A DNA stretch of 32,000 bases from an uncultured bacterium (lineage in GTDB: Bacteria > GCA-001730085). The position numbers and the translations under genes were made by a program. This document shows positions 606 through 15,149 of the stretch, piece after piece. Where the stretch lies: NCBI GenBank assembly GCA_964565945.1, contig CAZMGY010000003.1, positions 43,680 to 75,679 of the forward strand. Reading direction: 5' to 3'. Each line of letters opens with the position of its first letter. Position 1 is the stretch's first letter. Under the pieces are notes generated by a model. The model was not told where the DNA came from. It did not search any database and saw only the letters and a list, made by a program, of their open reading frames with translations.

Positions 606-767
606 ATGATTTCGTTAGTTTATGGTCGATATTTTGTCATCTCGCGGCTTGACCGCGGGATCAATATGTCCACGGCTTTTAACAAAGCAATCTCTTCCCA
701 AAGACGACTTAATTTAGGGTACAATAACCTTTTTAAGTGCTACAAATGGAATGAAAGAAAGTATTAA
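606..767 (+). CDS. 53-codon ORF abutting purQ (TAA 765-767, then ATG 769); possibly a degenerate purS, otherwise spurious
   Basis: Reads MISLVYGRYFVISRLDRGINMSTAFNKAISSQRRLNLGYNNLFKCYKWNERKY. It occupies the slot where purS precedes purQ in split-PurL organisms. Resemblance to PurS is only loose (LD.G...A..KA...LGY) and it is about 30 residues too short. Confidence 0.15.
   Translation: MISLVYGRYFVISRLDRGINMSTAFNKAISSQRRLNLGYNNLFKCYKWNERKY
728..754 (+). repeat. Copy 2 of the 27-bp direct repeat, overlapping the first ATG of the purQ ORF
   Basis: See copy 1. The ATG at 751 lies inside this copy. Confidence 0.7.
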
Positions 768-1449
768 GATGAGCAAAAAAGTGCGTTTTGGGATTGTTGT
801 GTTTCCTGGGTCAAATTGCGATAGTGATTGTTTTCATGTGATTCAAAATGTTTTAAAGCAAGAAGCGGTTTATTTGTGGCATAAAGATACGGATTTGCAA
901 AATGTTGATGCCGTAGTGTTGCCTGGGGGGTTTTCGTATGGGGATTATTTGCGTTGTGGCGCAATTGCCCATTGTTCGCCGATTATGGAGTCGATCAAAA
1001 CCTTTGTCGCCCAAGGTGGTTTGGTCTTAGGTATTTGCAATGGGTTTCAGGTATTGTTGGAAAGCGGTTTGTTGCCAGGTGCGATGAAACACAATACCTC
1101 CCGTAAGTTTATTTGCAAATATGTTGATTTGGTGGTCAATTATAATGAGACACCTTTCACCAATCAATATCAGGTGGGTGAGACCATTCGTATTCCCATT
1201 GCGCATAATGAAGGCAATTATCATCCTGTACCAGGTCAGGAGTCTTTGGCCGAGTCCAAGCGGTTGTTTGCGTATGCAGACAATCCCAATGGGGCGTATG
1301 CCGATATTGCGGGCTTAACCAACGAACAAGGCAACGTGCTTGGTATGATGCCGCATCCCGAGCGTTGCAGTGAGGCAGATTTATTGGGCGAAGATGGATT
1401 TAAGATTTTTCAAAGTATGGTTGTGCACTTGCAACGTGTTGCCGTGTGA
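751..1449 (+). CDS. purQ: Phosphoribosylformylglycinamidine synthase, glutamine amidotransferase subunit
   Basis: Motifs VFPGSNCD, the catalytic-Cys motif GICNGFQ, and MPHPER near the C-terminus. It sits immediately upstream of purL. The start could be ATG 769 (MSKKVRFGIVVFPGSNCD) rather than 751. Confidence 0.93.
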   Translation: MKESIKMSKKVRFGIVVFPGSNCDSDCFHVIQNVLKQEAVYLWHKDTDLQNVDAVVLPGGFSYGDYLRCGAIAHCSPIMESIKTFVAQGGLVLGICNGFQVLLESGLLPGAMKHNTSRKFICKYVDLVVNYNETPFTNQYQVGETIRIPIAHNEGNYHPVPGQESLAESKRLFAYADNPNGAYADIAGLTNEQGNVLGMMPHPERCSEADLLGEDGFKIFQSMVVHLQRVAV

Positions 1450-1479
1450 TTGAAGACGTTGTTGAGGGGATAAAACATC

Positions 1480-3705
1480 ATGAAAAAAATTACCCTTTCT
1501 AAAGAAATTATCGAAGGGCATGGACTGAGTAAATTGGAATACGAGTTGATTTTGAAACTTTTGGGGCGTGAACCGAATATTACAGAGCTTGGTATTTTTT
1601 CGGTGATGTGGTCGGAACATTGCAGCTATAAAAACTCGAAACCGCTTTTAAAACTGTTCCCAACACAGCATGAGCGTATTTTGATTGGAGCTGGCGAAGA
1701 AAATGCTGGAGTGGTTGATATTGGTGATGGCTGGGGCTTGGTGTTTAAGGTGGAATCGCACAATCATCCATCTGCGATTGAGCCATATCAAGGGGCTGCC
1801 ACGGGTGTTGGGGGCATTATTCGCGATATTTTTACGATGGGTGCTCGTCCGATTGCCTGTATGGACTCTTTGCGTTTTGGTTCCCTGAGCGATGAGCGAG
1901 TGAAATTTTTATTGAAAGGTGTGGTCGAAGGGATTGCTGGATATGGCAATTGCATTGGGATTCCAACGGTTGGTGGCGAAATTATGTTTGACGAATCCTA
2001 CCAAACCAATCCTTTGGTTAATGTGTTTTGCTTGGGTGTGGTGAAGCATGAAGACATTGCCCGTGGTGTGGCTTCGGGTGAAGGCAATCGAGTGCTTTAC
2101 GTAGGGCCTCCAACTGGACGTGATGGTATTCATGGGGCAACCTTTGCATCGGATGATTTGACTGAAAAATCCTCAGAAAAAAAATCCGCAGTGCAAGTGG
2201 GGGATCCCTTTATGGAAAAACTTTTACTCGAGGCGTGTTTGGAAGTGATTCAAAAAGGCCTTGTGGTGGGGATTCAAGATATGGGAGCGGCGGGCTTAAC
2301 CTGTTCGACCTGTGAAACGGCTAGTCGCGGGAACAGTGGTATTTCTATTGATGTGGCCAAGGTGCCTCAACGTGAAACGGGCATGACACCATATGAGATT
2401 ATGCTTTCGGAATCCCAAGAACGAATGTTATTGATTGTGGAACCTTCCAAAGTGAAGGATGTGCAAGCCGTGTTTGAGCGGTGGGATTTGTATGCTGAGG
2501 ATATTGGGCAGGTCCAAACTGGAGATCGGATGAAAGTGTTTAACCATGGTGAATTGGTGGCCGATATGCCAGTGGACGCCTTGGCGGAAAAAGCACCTAT
2601 GTATGTGCGCGAAGAGGAAGAGCCCGCTTATTTGAAAGATTTACCTCAAGTGGATGAGGCAAAAGTGGCTCAAAAGCAAGATTATGAAGCATCGATTAAA
2701 CAATTGTTGGCTGTGCCTAATATTGCCAGCAAGGCTTGGGTCTATGAGCAATATGATCATATGGTAGGCACGAATACCGTGTCTTTGCCAGGCTCGGATG
2801 CGGCGGTGATTCGGGTTAAAGATACCGATAAATTGGTGGCGATGAAACTCGATGGACAAGGTCGCTACTGTTATGTTGATCCCTATGAAGGTGGCAAAAT
2901 AGCTGTGGCCGAAGCGGCCCGTAATGTGGTTTGTTCGGGGGCACGTCCGATTGCGGCGACCGACTGTTTGAATTTTGGAAATCCGATGCACCCCGAAGTA
3001 TTTTGGGTGTTTCATCGTTGTGTGGAAGGTTTGGCTGAGGCTTGCCGAAAGTTGGATACTCCGATCATTGGGGGGAATGTGAGTCTTTATAATCAAAACC
3101 CCGATGGTGCGATTTTCCCGACACCGATTGTTGGTGTTGTTGGTGTGATGAATGATGTTTCTCAGGTGCAACAACGTGTGAATACCCAGTGGTTCAAAAA
3201 CGAAGGCGATGTGATTATGCTTTTGGGTGAAACCAAAAATGAAATCGGAGCGAGTGAGTTTTACAAAACTGTTTTAGGTGAAACCGTGGGGCCTTGTCCT
3301 AAAATCAATCTGCAAGTCGAACATAATCTTTATGAAGCGGTGATTTCTGCGAGTGAGCAAGGTTTGTTGCAGTCGGCGCATGATTGCGCCGAAGGTGGTT
3401 TGGCGGTAGCCTTGGTCGAATCATGTATATCTGGTCCCGAAGCCTTGGGTGCGACGATCTCTTTTGCCGAATCCTTTGAGCCCAATGTACTGCTGTTTGG
3501 CGAAAGTCAAAGTCGGATTATTGTGTCTTGTCGTGCGAATGATGAAGCGACTCTGCATAACTTGTGCGAACAACACGGTGTTCCAGTTCAAAAACTAGGA
3601 CAGGTTGGTGGCGCACAGCTAACAATTAATGACTGGATCAGCTGTGCTGTGCAAGACTTGCAGACAATTTGGACCGAAAGTTTCGCATTATTATTGAATG
3701 CCTAG
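1480..3705 (+). CDS. purL: Phosphoribosylformylglycinamidine synthase subunit PurL (small, 741-aa form)
   Basis: Motifs [28 protein letters not shown], and the duplicated AIR-synthase-like halves typical of PurL. The length fits the split PurLQS type. Confidence 0.96.
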
Positions 3706-3706
3706 A

Positions 3707-3730
3707 CCTTTTTGTAGGACGTGTAAGGTA
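3707..3730 (+). repeat. Left copy of an imperfect direct repeat bracketing the accessory segment
   Basis: CCTTTTTGTAG-GACGTGTA-AGGTA. The same three blocks recur at 8986-9009 as CCTTTTTGTAG-AGGTA-GACGTGTA. Confidence 0.5.
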
Positions 3731-4035
3731 TGAAGTATTTTGGTGGTATAAGTATAGCTTTGCTTGTGGTTAGTGTTGGATGTTCATCTCGAGCGATTTA
3801 TCGGCCATTGATCAATATTACTCCGTATCCACCGTCGCCAGAAAAAACCTTTGAGTTGCAGGTTAAAGAGGATGCTTCTCCTGTGAGTCCGATTGAGCCT
3901 TTTCGCTTGAGAACAATGTATGGAGGCTACGATCACTCGTCTAATCTGATCAAGAGTACGTTTGGTTATGGCGTTCGTTTGAAAGGAAAACGTGATCATA
4001 CAGGGATTGACTTTGTGGCACCGATCGGTGTTTAG
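3730..4035 (+). pseudogene. Truncated M23 (LytM-type) metallopeptidase lipoprotein; only the N-terminal 101 codons remain
   Basis: It has a signal/lipobox-like N-terminus (ALLVVSVGCSS). It runs into the first M23 zinc motif (DHTGIDFVAPIGV) and then stops. The GTPV...HxH part of the domain is absent, and the stop overlaps the 3' end of the convergent gene by 4 nt. Confidence 0.6.
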
Positions 4036-4526
4036 GCTTTTTGGAGTTGGGTCCACTTTCTCAAGTGGTGTTGCATATAGGGCTGTTTCTTGGGATCGAA
4101 ATAAGTGAGGACCAAATCACCCTGTTCAAGTCTTTCGAGGTATTTGGGCTCTGTCCCTAGGCGACTTTGTGTGACATAAGAAATCGAAATCTGAGTGCTA
4201 TCTTTTTTGCTGCGCACCACATTGAGAATGCCTGCTTGAGGAAAGGCATAGGTTGTATTGAGGGGAATGTTGTCAAAAATCATCACACTCATATTGTCTA
4301 AAGGTTTATCGGTGGCATAATTTCGCATATATCCTTCGTTAGTGAACTCAAATAGTTGATAAGGGGCAAAAAGGATCAAATCTTTGGGCATATCGGGACG
4401 AATACCTTGAAAAACCATTTGCCAGCGCCCCTGGATATCTTCGGACTGAGCGGGACGAAAGCCTTCTTGAGCCCAAGCCGAACTGACCAAGAGACCGATC
4501 CAAAGTATAGAGCGCAAAAGCGACAT
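4032..4526 (-). CDS. Hypothetical secreted protein (164 aa)
   Basis: Clean signal peptide (MSLLRSILWIGLLVSSAWA/QEG). GAGGG lies 9 nt upstream of the ATG, with a TTGTCA-17-TAAAGT promoter upstream. No family recognised. Confidence 0.6.
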   Translation of the reverse strand: MSLLRSILWIGLLVSSAWAQEGFRPAQSEDIQGRWQMVFQGIRPDMPKDLILFAPYQLFEFTNEGYMRNYATDKPLDNMSVMIFDNIPLNTTYAFPQAGILNVVRSKKDSTQISISYVTQSRLGTEPKYLERLEQGDLVLTYFDPKKQPYMQHHLRKWTQLQKA

Positions 4527-4562: not shown

Positions 4563-4591
4563 ACTTTAACATGATTGAATATACTTGACAA
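4563..4591 (-). promoter_or_regulatory. Putative sigma70-type promoter of the secreted-protein gene
   Basis: On the minus strand: TTGTCA (complement of 4586-4591), a 17-nt spacer, then TAAAGT (complement of 4563-4568). Its -35 overlaps the -35 of the divergent plus-strand promoter. Confidence 0.4.
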
Positions 4592-4634
4592 AGGATCGTG
4601 GGTTTATTATCGTAAATAGAAATATTTTCTATTT
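4585..4634 (+). promoter_or_regulatory. Putative promoter plus palindromic operator upstream of the Fur-family relic and the ATPase
   Basis: TTGACA (4585-4590), 17-nt spacer, TATCGT (4608-4613). This is followed directly by the perfect inverted repeat AAATAGAAA-TAT-TTTCTATTT (4614-4634). Confidence 0.45.
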
Positions 4635-4639
4635 AGGGA

Positions 4640-4885
4640 ATGGTGCTGGAGTATTTGATTCAGCAATTGCAACAATCGGATTAGAAAGTGACTCCTTGGC
4701 GCAAAGCCTTGCTGGCTCTTTTTAAGAGCCAGTCGAAAGCTTTAAGTGTCGGAGGGGTCTACCAGCATTTTAAGTAAAAATTTGATCCTGTTGGCTTGCC
4801 AAGTGTCTATCGTAATTTGGATGCTTTGTGTGATTTAGGTCTGTTATATGTCATGTGTTCCAATGACGGTCGCCATAAAGTGTAA
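4640..4885 (+). pseudogene. Fur/Zur-family transcriptional regulator relic (DNA-binding half only, two internal stops)
   Basis: Reads MVLEYLIQQLQQSD*KVTPWRKALLALFKSQSKALSVGGVYQHFK*KFDPVGLPSVYRNLDALCDLGLLYVMCSNDGRHKV*. This is collinear with the Fur winged-helix domain (GLKVTxxR..IL ... GLATVYRxL ... G). There are in-frame TAG 4682-4684 and TAA 4775-4777. The metal-binding/dimerisation half is missing. Confidence 0.75.
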
Positions 4886-7800
4886 TGTTGAAGGCCTCTG
4901 TGGGGATTGCAACGATGAATCGATATCTATTTAAAAAAATTAAGTGTCTTACGGCACTCATTCTTGTTCAGCTATTGGTGTGGCAGTCGGTGTCGTATGC
5001 GCTTAGTCCAGGCTCACATGTGGTGGATATGTATGCTGAGTTTCAGCATAAAGTGCAGCATGGAGTGCCATGGGCATTGATGAATCAGTCGGCGAAGGAG
5101 CATGCGCATGCTCCCGCAAAGCCCGAACAAAAACCTGTTCCTAAACACGAGCATAAACATGATCATAAGCATGAGTACAAAAAAGTTGAGACCCTTAAAT
5201 TATTTTATTCCATTCCCAGTGAATGTTTTGCTTTGGGTTTAGTTATTCTGGTGCTGGCAGTGGTCTTTACTGGAGGATCTTATTGGTTTTTAATGCTTGG
5301 TCTGCCTTTACTGATACAGGTGATATATGACATGGAAGTTACCTTAGAGCTTTATTGGAATAAGAGTGCTCTCAAAAAAGTCTATGATTTTATGCAAAAT
5401 AGTGCTGGGGTTGTGATTATTGCGATTGTGCTGTTTGGTTTGATGGAGATATTAGGCCACTTGGTGATGGTTGGTGCTGCGGCGACACCTCTTTTTTGGA
5501 CCTTCACGGTAATTTCTCTGATTGGAGTGATTGTTTATGCTCTTCCTGAGATGAACAATGGATGGAAGGCTGTTTTTAAAGCCATAGATTTTGGTCGTCA
5601 AGGCAAGAACCCCATGAGAGCCTTGGGTATGAGCTTTGTTCGGGGGTTTTCGCTATTTTTATTTATACTTTTACCTCTTTTGGGGATTGTTCATTTAAAC
5701 CTTGCCTTAGTGGTGTTAATTGCAGCGTCTGTCCAATTTGCTTATATTTTGAAACGTCAAGCTCGCGAATACCAAATGGAAGCCATGGGGCAGTTGAAAA
5801 ATCGAGAAATTCCCCGAAATATTGTGGTGGTGGCGCTGAATGGAGCAAAACTCCAGCAAAAAGTGATCCTGACCGAAGAAGAGGTTCAGGATATGTTAAA
5901 TCAAGGGATCGAGGTGACGGCTTATGTGGCTCAAAATACGTGGGTGCCTCGCATGGATGGTTTGATTGAAGCTGTAATCAATCAAAAGCAGGCCTATGTT
6001 GATGAGTCGGAGCTTAATGGGGAAGAGCAGCTTAAGCTAGTTAAGACCAGTGATCAAATCAAGGGAGGGACTTTTTTGACAGGAGCGCCTATTCATGTGC
6101 GCATTTTGCAGGTTGGCGAGCAAAGCGAAATTGGTCATATTGAATGCTCTCTCAAACGATTTAGCAGCAAAGGTGTGTCGCGAATAGAACGATTTTCTGA
6201 TAAGGTTGGGCAGTATTTTATCTACACCGTGTTCTTTTTTGCTATCGTTGGTTTTTTGGTGAGTTATTTGACTGTTGGCTCCATAACGACAGCATTAATT
6301 GGGGCTCTGACCGTCTTTGTAATCATATGTCCTTGTGCCTTTTTGATTGGGCAACCTTTAGCCTTTAGTGCTGCGCGCCAGAACTTGGCGGCGACGCATA
6401 AGATTAGCGTCAATGACGATCGTTCGTTTTTAGTGCCGCGTGTGATGGTGTTCGATAAAAGCAATACGATCACCGATGGGGTTGAAATTGATCGTGAGAA
6501 GCCTTGGGTGTCATTAGGTGCCGATATGGATGATGAAAAAGAGAAAGAGCGTATTTTGAAATGGGCCGCGATGGCTGAGTACCCTTATGCACAAAATCAG
6601 TATGCTCAAGAGGTGATTGAGTTGGCAATTCACCATGGTGCCACAGACCGTTTAAAGTTGGAAAATCATAAGAATTCTGTGAAAAGTCAGATTTATGAGA
6701 GTGGCAAAGGTCTTAAAGCGATCATCAAGGAACCTCATTATGGACATGCTCATGATCAGGAGGTTTACTTGGGGAACTTAGAAACGCTTTTGACAATGGT
6801 GACCACAATTCCCGAAGAGCAACAGCAAGCTTTGCGCAGACAAGTGGATGAAGTTGTTAATGCTGATTCGGACCAGGTTGTTACACCGATTGTGATGTAC
6901 GATATTACTCATGAGAAGCCTTTGCTCGTTTTTCGGATTATTAATCGAATTCGTCCCAAGGTGAAAGAATTTTTGGAGGATTACCGCAACATAGCGAAGC
7001 GCAATCCTTATTACACTTTTTTAAATGGAGTGTCACGTTTATTGTTCCGAACAGATTCTTTTCCTTCACAAACTTTGGCAGTGGTGGCATCGGGTGACCG
7101 CAAAGAAGCAGTTCGAAAAATTGTTAAAAAAATAGATATCAAGTTAGCTTTGGCCGAAGTGAGCCCTTCGGAAAAAGCTTTGTTTGTGTTACTGCTTAAA
7201 CATGGTGGATGGCTTGGAAAGTTCCAAAAAGATTTGGAAAAACGAAAGGATCCCCTGATTTTAACCTATCAAGAATTTCGCACCTATCTTATGGACAAAA
7301 GGTATGCCACGAAGAAAGAGGTTAATGACCTTGAGCAAATTTATCTTAAAGAGCATCAAGGGCCCGAAGATCATGCTTTAAAAACCAATGTGGTTTTCTT
7401 TATGGGCGATGGTAGCAACGACCGTCAGGCCATGCAAGTGGCTCATGCGGGAATTTCGTTCAATGGAGCACGTTCGGTTGGGCAGGGAGATATTCTTTTG
7501 GGAGCCGACAAAAAAGAGCAACCGCTTTTTTCACAGGTTAGTTATATTATAAAAACTTTTCGGCGCACCTATGGCATCATTCTAACCAATATTTTCTTGA
7601 TAGCCTTTGTTTGGAATATTGTGATACTCACTTTGATTTTTGCAGGAGTGTTAGGACCAGGGTGGGCGGCTCTAATGCATGCTTTGAATACGCTATTTGT
7701 TGTGATTTTGGCAATGAAACTAATGGCGAAACCCAAAGAATTTTTTAAACAAGAGTTTAAAAATATGTTTAAAGGTAAGGTATCTCATGTCGATAAGGAG

Positions 7801-8712
7801 CCGAAACACAAATCTCAAAAAAAGGCTGTTCAGAACCCTAAAAGCAATGTGGCGCAATTGATGACTAAAGAAGGGGTTCGCCCGCAGGCGCTATTTCAGG
7901 ACGATTGCTGTAGGTCTAGGTTTCGTGGTCGTGCCCAAGGGGGGCGTGGCGGGCATCATCATGATGATGCTGAAGTCGACCATTGTTGTTCGTCACCAGT
8001 TGTCTATCGGCCTCAGTATTATCGAGTTCCAGGCCTTTATGAAAGTAGGCCAGTTTTAACAGTTGCACAGTTACTAGGTGGTCAAGTTACTGCATGGCAG
8101 CAGTGGGCGGGTGCAATAGCGGATATGAGACAACTGTTAACCACAATGCAGCAACGCAGAAATAGCAAGCAAGCGAATATTACTTATATGATGGGGCCTC
8201 TTTTTGATGACTATGTTCTTGATGAAGGTGTCTTTATGGATTGGGTGATGACTCATGCCAATAAGATTCAGTTGATACCCAGTGCCACAGTGGGGGCGAT
8301 GCACTGGAAAGATGCGCAAGGCATTTATCGCATTCATATCGATCCTCGGTTGCTTAAAGATAGCGGTATGCAAGGCGTTTTAGCGAGTGAGTTATTGCAT
8401 GAGCTTTTGGAGATTTATTTTGTGACGCATGCGCGTGCTCAGGAGCCAATTTGGCATGAGGCCTATACGATAGAGAACCTGGATAAGGCCTCCTTTGAAG
8501 CGTCGATATTTGCGTTGCAAATTCAACTGCTTCAAGCGTGGGGAATGGATATGAATCGTATTCGTAATGGGTATATTTCTGTGGAGCAACAGTTTTTTGA
8601 TGGCCGAGCATTTTTTAGTACTGGTTTTGATGAGATTAATTCGTCTGTCGCTTCTTCTCGGCCACTTCAAGAGGTGGTTCAAAGTCAGTTTCAAGTGCTT
8701 TTTGTCGCATAA
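4885..8712 (+). CDS. Divergent P1B-type (heavy-metal) P-type ATPase homologue with N- and C-terminal His/Cys-rich segments and an extra C-terminal domain
   Basis: Uninterrupted 1275-codon ORF; the likely start is ATG 4915 (MNRYLFKKIKCLTALILVQLL...). It is collinear with P1B pumps. Shared elements: VDESELNGEE, CPC in a TM helix (6328-6336), FDKSNTITDG (6451-6480), AEVSPSEKA, GDGSNDRQAM (7405-7434) and terminal TM helices. The motifs deviate from TGE, DKTGT, HP and TGD. Confidence 0.85.
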   Translation: MLKASVGIATMNRYLFKKIKCLTALILVQLLVWQSVSYALSPGSHVVDMYAEFQHKVQHGVPWALMNQSAKEHAHAPAKPEQKPVPKHEHKHDHKHEYKKVETLKLFYSIPSECFALGLVILVLAVVFTGGSYWFLMLGLPLLIQVIYDMEVTLELYWNKSALKKVYDFMQNSAGVVIIAIVLFGLMEILGHLVMVGAAATPLFWTFTVISLIGVIVYALPEMNNGWKAVFKAIDFGRQGKNPMRALGMSFVRGFSLFLFILLPLLGIVHLNLALVVLIAASVQFAYILKRQAREYQMEAMGQLKNREIPRNIVVVALNGAKLQQKVILTEEEVQDMLNQGIEVTAYVAQNTWVPRMDGLIEAVINQKQAYVDESELNGEEQLKLVKTSDQIKGGTFLTGAPIHVRILQVGEQSEIGHIECSLKRFSSKGVSRIERFSDKVGQYFIYTVFFFAIVGFLVSYLTVGSITTALIGALTVFVIICPCAFLIGQPLAFSAARQNLAATHKISVNDDRSFLVPRVMVFDKSNTITDGVEIDREKPWVSLGADMDDEKEKERILKWAAMAEYPYAQNQYAQEVIELAIHHGATDRLKLENHKNSVKSQIYESGKGLKAIIKEPHYGHAHDQEVYLGNLETLLTMVTTIPEEQQQALRRQVDEVVNADSDQVVTPIVMYDITHEKPLLVFRIINRIRPKVKEFLEDYRNIAKRNPYYTFLNGVSRLLFRTDSFPSQTLAVVASGDRKEAVRKIVKKIDIKLALAEVSPSEKALFVLLLKHGGWLGKFQKDLEKRKDPLILTYQEFRTYLMDKRYATKKEVNDLEQIYLKEHQGPEDHALKTNVVFFMGDGSNDRQAMQVAHAGISFNGARSVGQGDILLGADKKEQPLFSQVSYIIKTFRRTYGIILTNIFLIAFVWNIVILTLIFAGVLGPGWAALMHALNTLFVVILAMKLMAKPKEFFKQEFKNMFKGKVSHVDKEPKHKSQKKAVQNPKSNVAQLMTKEGVRPQALFQDDCCRSRFRGRAQGGRGGHHHDDAEVDHCCSSPVVYRPQYYRVPGLYESRPVLTVAQLLGGQVTAWQQWAGAIADMRQLLTTMQQRRNSKQANITYMMGPLFDDYVLDEGVFMDWVMTHANKIQLIPSATVGAMHWKDAQGIYRIHIDPRLLKDSGMQGVLASELLHELLEIYFVTHARAQEPIWHEAYTIENLDKASFEASIFALQIQLLQAWGMDMNRIRNGYISVEQQFFDGRAFFSTGFDEINSSVASSRPLQEVVQSQFQVLFVA

Positions 8713-8890: not shown

Positions 8891-8985
8891 CTATATGAAA
8901 AACTCCACTCAAGAATACTTTTAATCCGAGGTTATATAATCAATTTCCATTTCTTTGCATCCGCAATCATGGAAATAGCTAAAAA

Positions 8986-13926: not shown

Positions 13927-15149
13927 AACGGCCTTAATGTTCACAAACTCGCGGAATCCCAAAGTGCAACAGTTCGAAGGCAAAGCTGGACTCTTTGATT
14001 CCTCCAAAGGGAAGGCGTGGGTCGGACTTGACAAAGCTATTCACAAAACAAGCTCCAGCATCCAGTTGTTCACGGGAAAAATTAAGCCCTTTTGGCTAGG
14101 TCTTTGGTGAATATCGCCGAACCTAGGCCAAAGGAGCTTTGCTTAGCGAGTTGAATTGCTTCGGCCTCATCCTTGGCTTTGATTAAAGCGCCCACTGGGC
14201 CAAACAGTTCCTCGTTGAAAGCCACCATGTCCAGTTTGACGTCTCCCAGCAATGTGGCGGGGTATAAGGCTCCAGGATGTTCGGGTAAAGTTCCTCCACA
14301 GAGTAAGGTTGCACCTTGCTCCAAATAACGGGTGACTTGGTCGTGCAGTTTATCGCGTAGAATCGACACGAGCCATGGGGGCAATCGTGGTGGGGATCCA
14401 GAAGTTCTCCCAAACCTTGTGATTTAAAGAGCTGTGTCATCTTTTCGGCAAATGCGTCATAAAGCGATTCTTCGATAATAAATCATTTGGCTACAATACA
14501 ACGTTAGTCTCCATTGATCAGGCGAGAGGCTGTGCAGGTTTGTGCCGCAAGTTCAATATCTGCATCAATCAAAACGACATAGGGGTCGCTGCCTCCTAAT
14601 TCGAGAACCGACTTTTTAAAAACGGCACTGGTTTCGAGGACCACGTTTTTTATCACCAGTGCTGAACCGACCATATTGGAAAGATGTTTGAGCAGGTCAG
14701 TGTTACCCGCTATTAGGGCTGGAGCAAGAAAACGGAATACTTGCCACAAAGGGCAATTCCAGGGCATGACCGCCAAAATGGTACCTAAAGGTTGGTAGCT
14801 AATAAAACTGGTGGTGTTGGCAATATCGACGGGTTCATCGGCCAAAAACTGAGTGGCATGTGTGGCGTAATATTCATAGACCATGGCGCACTTTTCGACT
14901 TCACCCTTGGCGTGTGACAAAGGTTTTTCCATTTCGGCCGTGATGAGTTCTCCATAAACTTGGGTGTTATCTTTGAGGAGTTAGGCCATTTGATTTATCA
15001 GTTTGGAGCGATTTTCGAACGAAGTGGTTTTCTAGCTGGCAAACACCTTGTGAACTTCTTGCATGATTGTATGGATACCGTCTGTCGAATGAGTCTCCTA
15101 GATGGCAAGGGTTTTTGAGTGTGTAGGGCTTAAGGGCTGTCATAGGCAT
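13927..15149 (-). pseudogene. Aldehyde / succinate-semialdehyde dehydrogenase family pseudogene, heavily decayed
   Basis: ALDH-like pieces lie in several frames: MTALKPYTLKNP, EVHKVFAS*KTTSFENRSKL, EMEKPLSHAKGEVEKCA...PWN.PLWQVFR, LELGGSDPYVVL, NGD*RCIVAK*FIIEE, FGPVGALIKAKDEAEAIQLA and PFGGIKES...EFVNIKAV. Internal stops fall at 15098-15100, 15032-15034 (at the position where I expect a conserved Trp), 14981-14983 and 14504-14506. There are at least three frame changes and about 55-60 codons are missing between KHLSN and LELGG. Confidence 0.85.

What the first reader, a model, noticed from the sequence alone, without database searches (positions are those of the whole stretch)
4885..8712. 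Intact 1275-codon P1B-type ATPase homologue in which most catalytic signatures are rewritten
The protein is collinear with heavy-metal pumps. Shared elements are the actuator segment VDESELNGEE...GGTFLTGAPIHV, CPC in a TM helix (6328-6336), FDKSNTITDG (6451-6480), AEYPYAQ, VASGD...AEVSPSEKA, GDGSNDRQAM (7405-7434) and two terminal TM helices. However, TGE is NGE (6016-6024), DKTGT is DKSNT, the His of SEHPL is Tyr, and TGD is SGD. About 60 extra residues (HGGWLGKF...HALKTN) precede GDGSND. The N-terminus has a signal-peptide-like helix (from ATG 4915) and a His-rich run, HAHAPAKPEQKPVPKHEHKHDHKHEY (5101-5178). By eye there are about six helices before the actuator domain rather than the usual four. 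After the last TM helix comes DDCC...GGHHHDD...DHCC (7900-7989). The ORF is unbroken even though three neighbouring genes are relics, so it appears to be under selection. It is either an undescribed P1B subgroup (Zn/Cd-like judging by the CC/His tails) or a pump fold repurposed as a sensor or scaffold.
Basis: partly seen in the sequence, partly recalled or inferred. Interest (0 to 1): 0.75.

Follow-up and report, generated by a model that had tools for sequence, protein, structure and literature searches.

The report
Divergent metal-pump ATPase, new small subgroup
The gene is an intact but very unusual relative of bacterial heavy-metal export pumps, one of a tiny uncatalogued subgroup with a rebuilt metal-binding site, and it most likely still works as a pump.

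Summary
The likelier start codon is ATG 4915, giving 1265 aa.

It is a true P1B-type ATPase by sequence profile and predicted fold. It falls far below every curated P1B subfamily cut-off.

An exhaustive search of 1.84 billion protein representatives found four relatives at 26-37% identity, then a sharp drop to ordinary copper pumps. One relative sits in the same purL|X|purM slot of a distantly related genome and shares NGE and DKSNT. Two paralogues keep canonical TGE and DKTGT.

"Most catalytic signatures rewritten" is overstated:
- SGD is the majority form among the nearest ordinary pumps.
- NGE occurs in a few of them.
- The nucleophile Asp, Lys, Thr, the motif-III Lys, GDGxND and the Gly-Glu of TGE are all kept.

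What is distinctive, and shared by all five family members:
- loss of the N-domain His-Pro (here Asn571-Gln572, not Tyr566)
- a rebuilt membrane site (Cys484, Trp-Asn in M5, His-x-x-Asn in M6)
- a signal-peptide-like N-terminus
- two extra helices
- two P-domain inserts

A dead Fur-family regulator gene with a promoter and palindrome lies directly upstream.

Best reading: a working but derived divalent-metal efflux pump of an undescribed P1B subgroup. Catalysis and substrate are untested.

The parts
4915..8712 (+). P1B-like ATPase gene. Probable start is 4915 (1265 aa). The longest ORF starts at 4885 (1275 aa), and residue numbers in this report follow the 1275-aa ORF.
   Evidence: Pfam PF00122 E 1.9e-23. 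The database gene call uses 4915. Identical in 5 assemblies.
4924..5016 (+). Signal-peptide-like N-terminus. A basic n-region (MNRYLFKKIK, from 4915) precedes the hydrophobic helix (residues 14-40), an SYA|L small-x-small site and the family-invariant L40-x-P42-x-S44 motif.
   Evidence: Hydropathy. Family alignment invariants L40, P42, S44. Low-confidence helix in the model.
5101..5178 (+). His-rich run HAHAPAKPEQKPVPKHEHKHDHKHEY, predicted disordered. The orthologue P0067 has a His/Cys-rich segment at the same place.
5218..5358 (+). Two extra hydrophobic helices (a: residues 112-128, b: residues 134-158) N-terminal to MA. Absent from canonical P1B pumps.
   Evidence: AlphaFold helices with pLDDT 56-67. 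Unaligned to canonical sequences.
5404..5799 (+). Helices MA, MB (with platform), M1 and M2.
5800..6174 (+). Actuator domain. VDESELNGEE at 5998-6027; NGE at 6016-6024, with Gly379 and Glu380 invariant.
   Evidence: Pfam PF00122. Alignments.
6181..6399 (+). M3-M4 with CPC at 6328-6336. Only Cys484 and Pro491 are invariant in the family.
   Evidence: Lowest-but-one pN, 0.33.
6454..6468 (+). Phosphorylation loop DKSNT. Asp524, Lys525 and Thr528 are kept; Thr526 is Ser and Gly527 is Asn.
6517..6954 (+). Nucleotide-binding domain. Glu565 is kept. His-Pro is replaced by Asn571-Gln572 (6595-6600). Tyr573 is family-invariant. SGKGLK (6700-6717) keeps the GxG motif.
7003..7077 (+). Family-specific P-domain insert 1 (NPYYTFLNGVSRLLFRTDSFPSQTL). 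Asn714, Ser717, Phe721 and Pro727 are invariant in the family.
   Evidence: pLDDT above 90.
7090..7176 (+). SGD (7090-7098) and AEVSPSEK with the motif-III Lys764 (7153-7176).
7201..7389 (+). Family-specific P-domain insert 2 (~62 aa, HGGWLGKF...HALKTN). Phe798 is invariant in the family. Modelled as helices.
7405..7422 (+). GDGSND (HAD motif IV). Both Asp and the Asn are kept.
7525..7716 (+). M5-M6. Trp910-Asn911 (7612-7617) replaces Tyr-Asn. His932-Ala-Leu-Asn935-Thr936 (7678-7692) replaces Met-x-x-Ser-Ser. Trp, Asn, His and Asn are invariant in the family.
   Evidence: Lowest pN, 0.30.
7900..7989 (+). Cys/His-rich cytoplasmic tail DDCC...GGHHHDD...DHCC, predicted disordered.
8062..8709 (+). 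C-terminal domain of unknown function. It is shared weakly and collinearly only with P0068.
   Evidence: No Pfam or NCBIfam hit. No homologues. BLASTP to the P0068 tail 24% over 92 aa, E 0.003. Model pLDDT 52. No significant fold match.
4640..4885 (+). Relic of a Fur-family metalloregulator gene. Only the N-terminal DNA-binding half remains, with in-frame stops at 4682, 4775 and 4883. It is co-oriented with the ATPase and ends 30 nt before its start.
   Evidence: Pfam PF01475 E 6.6e-7, 29.9 bits (cut-off 23.1), profile positions 5-69 of 121..
4585..4635 (+). Promoter-like site (TTGACA-17-TATCGT) followed immediately by a perfect 10-3-10 palindrome, TAAATAGAAAtatTTTCTATTTA (4613-4635). Candidate operator of the lost regulator.
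   Evidence: no match in any of 100 shuffles.

Best explanation
The gene encodes a functional but strongly derived P1B-type (heavy-metal) P-type ATPase. It belongs to a very small, previously uncatalogued subgroup that branched from copper-pump-like ancestors.

**Mechanism (inferred).** It runs the usual Post-Albers cycle. ATP phosphorylates Asp524. GDGSND and Lys764 hold Mg2+ and phosphate. Glu380 of the NGE loop dephosphorylates the enzyme. A metal ion bound between M4, M5 and M6 is moved from the cytoplasm to the periplasm.

**Substrate (inferred).** The membrane site has been rebuilt. Cys484, with Cys482 in this protein, sits in M4. Trp910-Asn911 sits in M5 and His932/Asn935/Thr936 in M6. 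This replaces the Cu(I) set of Cys-Pro-Cys, Tyr-Asn and Met-x-x-Ser-Ser. A mixed S/N/O site suits a borderline divalent metal (Zn, Fe, Mn, Co or Ni) better than Cu(I).

**Accessory segments (inferred).** The His-rich N-terminal segment and the Cys/His C-terminal tail are probably metal-binding regulatory or delivery segments.

**Regulation (inferred).** The gene was once transcribed with, and probably controlled by, an adjacent Fur-family metalloregulator. That regulator is now a pseudogene, so expression from the upstream promoter is probably de-repressed.

**Shown:** fold, homology, family membership, retention of catalytic residues, conservation pattern, the regulator relic. **Inferred:** activity, substrate class, direction of transport, regulation.
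For: **Homology and fold**
- PF00122 E 1.9e-23. TIGR01525 (generic P1B) E 6.6e-45.
- hhalign of the family against canonical pumps: probability 100%, E 3e-54 over 594 columns.
- AlphaFold pLDDT 79, pTM 0.78. Best Foldseek hits are LpCopA 4bbj (E 3e-29), AfCopA 7r0g and ZntA 4umw.

**Catalytic residues**
- All 17 columns invariant across 74 aligned P1B sequences are kept. These include Gly-Glu of TGE, Asp-Lys-x-x-Thr-x-Thr, Gly-Asp of TGD, the motif-III Lys, GDGxND and the M5 Asn.
- SGD is the commonest form in canonical pumps, and NGE and SGE occur naturally.

**A real family**
- Four relatives at E 8e-153 to 1e-58, then a gap to 8e-23.
- Two of them keep canonical TGE and DKTGT, so the clade descends from working pumps.
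- This protein keeps as many canonical positions (43 of 79) as those two do (42 and 36).

**Maintenance**
- A positional orthologue sits in the same purL|X|purM slot. It shares NGE, DKSNT, CPC, WN and HALNT, although flanking proteins are only 51-83% identical.
- pN 0.43 is below pS 0.74. pN is lowest in M5-M6 (0.30) and M3-M4 (0.33).
- GC3 is like the neighbouring genes.

**Metal link**
- Fur-family relic plus promoter and palindrome directly upstream.
- His-rich and Cys-rich tails.
- His and Asn in M6 recall the P1B-6 hallmark N-X18-H-N-X-(S/T) described for CtpC (PMC13460109).
Against: - No activity data exist.
- DKSNT fails the strict P-type signature. 144 of the 145 nearest pumps have DKTGT and none has Asn at the Gly position.
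- The N-domain His-Pro, important for ATP binding in known P1B pumps (established knowledge: ATP7B His1069, AfCopA His462), is lost in the whole family.
- PF00702 is not detected, and every curated P1B model scores far below its cut-off.
- The gene evolves 1.5-4 times faster than its neighbours at non-synonymous sites.
- The M4 motif is not conserved in the family (CPC, CAC, SSC).
- The signal-peptide-like N-terminus conflicts with the even number (six) of helices before the cytoplasmic actuator domain, so the topology is not understood.
- The regulator link rests on a pseudogene in one species. No comparable gene or operator was seen next to the relatives.
Confidence: 0.6

Rival explanations
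1. Pump fold kept, catalysis lost or crippled. The protein no longer completes the ATP-driven cycle because of DKSNT, NGE and the lost His-Pro. It is retained instead as a metal-binding membrane sensor, scaffold, chaperone or passive pathway, using the conserved membrane site and the Cys/His tails.
For: - DKSNT (this protein and P0067) and DKTDT (P0068) are essentially unseen among canonical pumps: 144 DKTGT and 1 DKSGT among 145.
- His-Pro is lost.
- PF00702 is undetected.
- Non-synonymous evolution is fast.
- There is a large extra C-terminal domain of unknown function.
- The three members with altered DKTGT also have NGE, which suggests a coordinated change.
Against: - The residues that would be free to drift in a non-enzyme are all invariant over 23-35% identity: Asp524, Lys525, Thr528, Thr530, Gly-Asp of SGD, Lys764, both Asp and the Asn of GDGxND, and Glu380.
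- Ser for Thr keeps the hydroxyl. Asn and Asp are the residues that best replace a positive-phi Gly (general structural knowledge, inference here).
- Loss of His-Pro is shared with the DKTGT/TGE paralogues, so it does not mark inactivation.
Confidence: 0.22
2. A decaying gene. The ORF is open by chance or only recently released from selection, in a genome that is losing genes nearby.
For: - Pseudogenes lie on both sides: the Fur relic at 4640-4885 and Aldedh fragments at 14082-14932.
- The two amino-acid variants seen within the species are, by definition, non-synonymous.
- It has the highest dN among the syntenic genes.
Against: - 3.8 kb without a stop, identical in five assemblies.
- The orthologue is intact, in the same slot, after divergence deep enough to saturate synonymous sites.
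- pN is well below saturation and lowest in the ion-pathway helices.
- The unusual motifs are shared with that orthologue, so they are old and maintained.
Confidence: 0.06
3. An ordinary Zn/Cd (P1B-2, ZntA/CadA-type) or Cu (P1B-1, CopA-type) exporter that merely looks odd because of lineage-specific drift.
For: - CPC in M4.
- The nearest sequences and structures are CopA-type.
Against: - M5 and M6 ligands match neither class. Trp-Asn and His-x-x-Asn-Thr stand in place of Tyr-Asn and Met-x-x-Ser-Ser. By general knowledge they also differ from the Lys and Asp-x-Gly of Zn pumps.
- Bit scores against curated cut-offs: TIGR01511 101 vs 397; TIGR01512 90 vs 313.5; ZntA model 36 vs 1240; CopA model 57 vs 1316.
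- There is no HMA domain.
Confidence: 0.08

Closest known systems
P1B-1 Cu(I)-exporting ATPases (CopA of Archaeoglobus fulgidus and Legionella pneumophila; ATP7A/B)
   Same: - Best sequence and fold matches.
- MA/MB plus M1-M6 core.
- CPC in M4 and the M5 Asn.
- A, P and N domain order.
- SGD, AEVxPxxK and GDGxND motifs.
   Different: - Tyr-Asn is Trp-Asn, and Met-x-x-Ser-Ser is His-x-x-Asn-Thr.
- His-Pro is lost.
- DKTGT is DKSNT, and TGE is NGE.
- No HMA domain.
- A signal-like N-terminus and two extra helices.
- Two P-domain inserts (25 and about 62 aa).
- A 300-aa C-terminal extension.
- Scores are about a quarter of the curated cut-off (101 vs 397).
P1B-6-like ATPases (for example M. tuberculosis CtpC), as described in PMC13460109
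   Same: - A His and an Asn plus Ser/Thr in M6, together with an M5 Asn, giving a mixed N/O/S site.
- CPC is possible in M4.
- No CxxC domain.
- Linked to divalent metals.
   Different: - The hallmark is N-X18-H-N-X-(S/T). Here it is N911-X20-H932-x-x-N935-T936.
- No sequence comparison with a P1B-6 member could be made. None was among the best 150 hits, which were all CPC/YN/M..SS types.
P1B-2 Zn/Cd/Pb ATPases (ZntA, CadA; plant HMA2/4)
   Same: - CPC in M4.
- His-rich and Cys-Cys-containing tails resemble HMA2/4 tails (general knowledge).
   Different: - The M5 Lys and M6 Asp-x-Gly signature is absent.
- ZntA structures and models score much lower than CopA ones.
The four family members found here (P0067, P0068, P0069, P0070)
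   Same: - Signal-like N-terminus with L-x-P-x-S.
- Extra helices and both P-domain inserts.
- SGD, Trp-Asn and His-x-x-Asn.
- Loss of His-Pro, with Tyr573 invariant.
- P0067 is the positional orthologue.
   Different: - P0069 and P0070 keep TGE and DKTGT.
- M4 is CAC or SSC in P0068-P0070.
- The C-terminal domain is shared only, and weakly, with P0068.
- His-rich N-termini occur only in this protein and P0067.

Membership tests
P-type ATPase superfamily | Phosphorylatable Asp in the strict signature D-K-T-G-T-[LIVM]-[TIS] | tested here: not met
   The sequence is DKSNTIT. Asp524, Lys525, Thr528 and Thr530 are present. Positions 3 and 4 differ: Ser and Asn.
P-type ATPase superfamily | HAD-type catalytic set: nucleophile Asp, motif II Ser/Thr-Gly-Asp, motif III Lys, motif IV GDGxND | tested here: met
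   Asp524, Ser736-Gly-Asp738, Lys764 and Gly841-Asp-Gly-Ser-Asn-Asp846 all lie in invariant columns of the 74-sequence alignment.
P-type ATPase superfamily | Actuator domain with the TGE loop (catalytic Glu) | tested here: met
   PF00122 scores 83 bits against a cut-off of 28. Gly379-Glu380 are invariant. Thr is Asn, a variant seen in 3 of 145 canonical pumps.
P-type ATPase superfamily | Overall fold (A, P and N domains plus the membrane domain) | tested here: met
   AlphaFold pTM 0.78. Foldseek E 3e-29 to 4bbj, and all top 50 hits are P-type ATPases.
P-type ATPase superfamily | Formation of an acyl-phosphate intermediate and ATP hydrolysis | not testable with these tools
   Needs biochemistry.
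P1B (heavy-metal) subfamily | Two extra N-terminal helices MA/MB before M1-M6, with a Cys-containing xPC/CPx motif in M4 | tested here: met
   MA, MB and M1-M6 are identified by alignment and model. CPC is at residues 482-484. Two further helices are additional.
P1B (heavy-metal) subfamily | His-Pro dipeptide in the nucleotide-binding domain | tested here: not met
   It aligns to Asn571-Gln572 in three independent alignments. It is lost in all five family members.
P1B (heavy-metal) subfamily | Score above the curated cut-off of NCBIfam TIGR01525 | tested here: not met
   154 bits against a cut-off of 346.
P1B-1 (Cu+) | M4 CPC, M5 Tyr-Asn, M6 Met-x-x-Ser-Ser; usually an HMA domain | tested here: not met
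   CPC is present, but M5 is Trp-Asn and M6 is His-Ala-Leu-Asn-Thr. There is no HMA domain. TIGR01511 scores 101 vs 397.
P1B-2 (Zn/Cd/Pb) | M4 CPC with M5 Lys and M6 Asp-x-Gly (signature from general knowledge); curated models | tested here: not met
   There is no Lys or Asp-x-Gly at the aligned positions. TIGR01512 scores 90 vs 313.5 and the ZntA model 36 vs 1240.
P1B-6 | N-X18-H-N-X-(S/T) between M5 and M6 (PMC13460109); SCA or CPC in M4 | tested here: inconclusive
   Here the pattern is N-X20-H-x-x-N-T. The ligand types are similar but the spacing differs. No reference P1B-6 sequence was available for alignment.

The most novel reading that the evidence does not exclude
The family is a P1B pump with a topology or role not seen before. 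A cleavable signal peptide would export the conserved L-x-P-x-S motif and the His-rich segment to the periplasm. One of the two extra hydrophobic helices would then be a re-entrant or interfacial element. The pump would carry an outward-facing metal-binding domain, for example for receiving or handing over metal, or for import. The altered DKSNT/NGE loops would give a modified, slower or gated cycle.
Probability: 0.15. Interest if true: 0.75.

Novelty: new variant of a known kind. Interest (0 to 1): 0.5.

Why it matters
P1B pumps are classified, and their metals predicted, from a handful of signature residues in M4-M6 and from the DKTGT, TGE and His-Pro motifs. This family breaks several of those rules at once while remaining under selection.

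If it is active, three things follow:
- The Gly of DKTGT and the His-Pro of the nucleotide pocket are dispensable.
- A new Cys / Trp-Asn / His-x-x-Asn metal site is defined, whose substrate is unknown.
- A natural series becomes available, from DKTGT/TGE paralogues to DKTDT/NGE and DKSNT/NGE, for asking how far the phosphorylation loop can drift.

If it is inactive, it would be a rare example of a conserved pseudo-pump.

In practice, automatic annotation will label it only "E1-E2 ATPase" or "hypothetical", and metal-resistance predictions for this lineage would miss it or mis-assign it.

Tried and rejected
**Source organism (not established)**
1. I suspected Coxiella burnetii from the GC content, clonality and pseudogenes. 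The window's PurN matches PDB 3tqr only distantly (E 3e-39). I recall 3tqr as C. burnetii PurN. The split purQ / small purL is also atypical for gammaproteobacteria. Rejected.
2. Ribosomal protein L20 against PDB ribosomes gave no discriminating match.
3. Cluster look-ups returned no names.
4. Accession searches in the literature found nothing.

**Search for more family members**
5. The GTDB scan with the protein found no relative.
6. The GTDB scan with PurM found nothing above 59% identity (57% over the full length), from scattered phyla. That scan depends on shared 8-mers, so it carries no taxonomic signal.
7. The metagenome scan with the family profile found only canonical pumps.
8. Word-index searches found no family member beyond the gene's own cluster.

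**C-terminal domain**
9. No Pfam, NCBIfam or sequence homologue.
10. The AlphaFold model is weak (pLDDT 52), and Foldseek found nothing significant. The top weak hits were zincin-like peptidases at E about 0.1. The HELLE motif is not HExxH and is not conserved in P0068. Not claimed.

**Other checks**
11. Within-species dN/dS is impossible because the gene is identical in all assemblies.
12. dS between orthologues is saturated, so only pN against pS and regional contrasts were used.
13. A shared operator upstream of the relatives was not found. Only chance AT-rich palindromes appeared.
14. The 534-nt spacer to purM shows no recognisable relic by eye in a six-frame translation.
15. Rfam found nothing in the window.
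16. A literature search for DKSNT, DKTDT and DKSGT found nothing relevant.
17. The key P1B classification paper (PMC4119550) is not held in the library.

Full report
**1. The observation**

Window 4885..8712 (+) is one open reading frame of 1275 codons.

The same sequence, base for base, is present in five independent SRA assemblies. Hidden frameshifts from sequencing error can be dismissed.

The protein database holds it as a 1265-aa product starting at ATG 4915. A GGGGA sits 8 nt upstream of that ATG, and the relatives begin at the equivalent position. So 4915 is the likelier start. I keep the 1275-aa numbering below.

**2. What it is by sequence and fold**

- Pfam detects only the E1-E2 ATPase (actuator/membrane) family, at residues 362-502, E 1.9e-23. 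The HAD hydrolase family PF00702, which every ordinary P1B pump hits, is not detected.
- NCBIfam's generic P1B model scores 154 bits against a cut-off of 346. The Cu, Cd, CopA and ZntA models are all far below their cut-offs.
- The best solved relatives are A. fulgidus CopA (E 1.5e-22), then L. pneumophila CopA, HMA4 and ZntA.
- A profile-profile comparison of the family with 24 ordinary pumps gives probability 100%, E 3e-54, over 594 columns from MB to M6.
- An AlphaFold model of residues 11-1005, built on a 74-sequence alignment, has mean pLDDT 79 and pTM 0.78.
- Its best PDB matches are CopA (4bbj, E 3e-29; 7r0g) and ZntA (4umw).

The homology to P1B pumps is therefore secure. The protein lies well outside the curated families.

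**3. How "rewritten" are the signatures?**

I aligned it with 14, then 69, then 145 ordinary P1B pumps.

All 17 columns invariant across the 74-sequence alignment are retained:
- Gly379-Glu380
- Pro491
- Asp524, Lys525, Thr528, Thr530
- Glu565
- Gly737-Asp738
- Lys764
- Gly-Asp-Gly-x-Asn-Asp 841-846
- Asn911

Among the 145 nearest ordinary pumps:

| Motif | Counts among 145 |
|---|---|
| TGD position | SGD 93, TGD 52 |
| TGE position | TGE 124, SGE 17, NGE 3, QGE 1 |
| DKTGT position | DKTGT 144, DKSGT 1 |
| M5 | YN 139, WN 1 |

SGD is therefore normal, and NGE is rare but natural. DKSNT is truly unusual.

The His-Pro of the nucleotide-binding domain aligns to Asn571-Gln572 in HMMER, MAFFT and hhalign. 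The His is lost either way.

In the membrane, Tyr-Asn of M5 is Trp910-Asn911. Met-x-x-Ser-Ser of M6 is His932-Ala-Leu-Asn935-Thr936.

Of 79 positions that are at least 90% conserved in 69 ordinary pumps, this protein keeps 43.

There are two inserts in the P domain, both modelled with high confidence:
- 25 residues at 707-731
- about 62 residues at 773-835

**4. It is not an orphan**

Word-index searches found only the gene's own cluster. The exhaustive HMMER scan of 1.84 billion representatives found four relatives:

| Protein | Identity | Length | E-value |
|---|---|---|---|
| P0067 | 37% | 1080 aa | 8e-153 |
| P0068 | 33% | 1197 aa | 1e-122 |
| P0069 | 30% | 1073 aa | 4e-87 |
| P0070 | 26% | 936 aa | 1e-58 |

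The next hit is an ordinary pump at 8e-23. A scan of 241 million metagenome records with the family profile found only ordinary pumps. The family is rare.

All five members share:
- the signal-like N-terminus ending in a small-x-small site, followed by invariant Leu40-x-Pro42-x-Ser44
- the extra helices and both inserts
- SGD, Trp-Asn and His-x-x-Asn
- loss of His-Pro, with an invariant Tyr573

| Motif | Window and P0067 | P0068 | P0069 | P0070 |
|---|---|---|---|---|
| TGE position | NGE | NGE | TGE | TGE |
| DKTGT position | DKSNT | DKTDT | DKTGT | DKTGT |
| M4 | CPC | CAC | CAC | SSC |

The clade therefore descends from pumps with canonical loops. The altered loops are a derived state of one branch.

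**5. Maintained, not decaying**

- P0067 lies in assembly GCA_001730085.1 (GC 37%), in the same slot between purL and purM. The flanking order is identical: nrdA, thrS, infC, rpmI, rplT, purQ, purL, X, purM, purN, mfd. It is a positional orthologue.
- Flanking proteins are 51-83% identical between the two genomes. The ATPase is 34% identical.
- Synonymous sites are saturated (pS 0.74). pN is 0.43 for the ATPase against 0.15-0.33 for its neighbours.
- Within the ATPase, pN is lowest in M5-M6 (0.30) and M3-M4 (0.33), and highest in the tails.
- The gene therefore evolves fast but under constraint, and the constraint is strongest on the ion pathway.
- NGE and DKSNT are shared by the two orthologues, so they predate that deep split.
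- GC and GC3 match the neighbouring genes.
- The same assembly, or its read set, also carries P0069 and P0070 at unrelated loci. That organism therefore has three paralogues.

**6. Context**

The window is from a Gram-negative organism: lptF/G, lpxK, a heptosyltransferase and Wzi are present. It has 44% GC, strong GC skew and strong gene-strand bias.

Immediately upstream of the ATPase, on the same strand, is the wreck of a Fur-family regulator gene:
- It starts at ATG 4640 and has in-frame stops at 4682, 4775 and 4883.
- Only profile positions 5-69 of 121 remain (PF01475, E 6.6e-7, above the cut-off).
- In front of it is a promoter-like site, TTGACA-17-TATCGT at 4585-4613.
- Abutting that is a perfect 10-3-10 palindrome at 4613-4635.

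This looks like an autoregulated metalloregulator-pump operon whose regulator has died. It is the only contextual clue to function. It points to divalent metals, since Fur-family members sense Fe, Zn, Mn, Ni or peroxide (general knowledge).

I found no equivalent next to the relatives.

Aldehyde-dehydrogenase fragments at 14082-14932 are a second relic.

**7. Mechanism**

The most likely reading is a working pump.
- The substitutions in the phosphorylation loop are the mildest possible. Ser keeps the hydroxyl of Thr. Asn (or Asp in P0068) is the residue that best tolerates the backbone geometry of a conserved Gly. This is an inference from general structural knowledge.
- The loss of His-Pro cannot by itself mean inactivity, because the DKTGT/TGE paralogues share it. 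The invariant Tyr573 may take over adenine contact (speculative).
- The membrane site mixes Cys, Asn and His. It resembles in kind, but not in spacing, the N-X18-H-N-X-(S/T) hallmark reported for P1B-6-like pumps such as CtpC (PMC13460109).
- I therefore predict a borderline divalent metal rather than Cu(I). I cannot choose among Zn, Fe, Mn, Co and Ni.

**8. What remains unexplained**

(a) Topology. The N-terminus has every feature of a Sec signal peptide in all five proteins. Yet the model and hydropathy give six helices between it and the cytoplasmic actuator domain. The positive-inside rule, applied by eye to the sequence, places the His-rich segment in the cytoplasm. Either the first helix is not a cleaved signal, or one of the extra helices does not span the membrane.

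(b) The 300-residue C-terminal extension. It has no detectable relatives except a weak collinear match in P0068. Its model is low-confidence, and the only fold echoes, of zincin-like peptidases, are insignificant.

(c) The source organism is unknown. It is not C. burnetii, on the PurN comparison.

**9. Verdict**

This is a real and intact gene. It is a new variant of a known kind: a member of a tiny uncatalogued P1B-type subgroup. The subgroup has a rebuilt metal site, a lost His-Pro, extra N-terminal membrane elements and conserved P-domain inserts.

"Most catalytic signatures rewritten" is overstated. "Undescribed P1B subgroup" is supported. "Zn/Cd-like" is not established. "Repurposed pump fold" stays a minority possibility until biochemistry is done.

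Noticed in passing
window 4640-4885 (+), with 4585-4635: Pseudogene of a Fur-family metalloregulator. Only the N-terminal DNA-binding half remains, with three in-frame stops. It is preceded by a promoter-like site and a perfect 23-bp palindrome, TAAATAGAAAtatTTTCTATTTA. It ends 30 nt before the ATPase start.
   Followed up: yes
window 8909-8950: A 42-bp insertion/deletion polymorphism in the ATPase-purM spacer. It is present in the window and absent from five SRA assemblies that are otherwise identical here. There is also a single T/G SNP at 1956 in purL in two of them.
   Followed up: partly
window 14082-14384 and 14504-14932 (-): Two ORF fragments of one aldehyde dehydrogenase gene (Pfam Aldedh profile positions 317-407 and 81-176). 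This is a pseudogene between mfd and the polysaccharide gene cluster.
   Followed up: partly
L042 10001-13243; L045 10001-13222; L046 10001-12811: Three paralogues of this ATPase family are recovered from one source: assembly GCA_001730085.1 (GC about 37%) carries P0067 and P0069, and its apparent read set SRR4020083 carries P0067 and P0070. One is in the syntenic purL|purM slot. One is next to ftsH-folP-cdaA. One is between ubiA and surE. The last two keep canonical TGE and DKTGT.
   Followed up: partly
L044 57-3650: The fourth relative (P0068: DKTDT, NGE, CAC) is on a 9-kb contig of 42% GC. It comes from the same SRA series as two runs that contain the window's species. It is the only relative sharing the C-terminal domain. 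Whether it is a second copy in a sister species is unknown.
   Followed up: no
window 3730-4035 (+) and 4032-4526 (-): Two ORFs (101 and 164 aa) between purL and the Fur relic have no Pfam or NCBIfam match. They are absent from the syntenic locus L042. They may be lineage-specific genes or further relics.
   Followed up: partly
window 751-3705: Purine synthesis uses the split PurQ plus small PurL (741 aa) form rather than the single large PurL typical of gammaproteobacteria. No PurS ORF of 100 aa or more lies nearby. This is a hint about the unknown taxonomy.
   Followed up: no
window 31001-32000: GC drops to 34% and GC skew changes sign (-0.20). The region contains a 130-aa minus-strand ORF (31115-31507) with no family match.
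   Followed up: no
window 8398-8412 (residues 1172-1176): HELLE lies in a long predicted helix that follows a small beta-sheet in the C-terminal domain. This superficially resembles a zincin active-site helix. It is not HExxH, and the His and first Glu are not conserved in P0068.
   Followed up: partly
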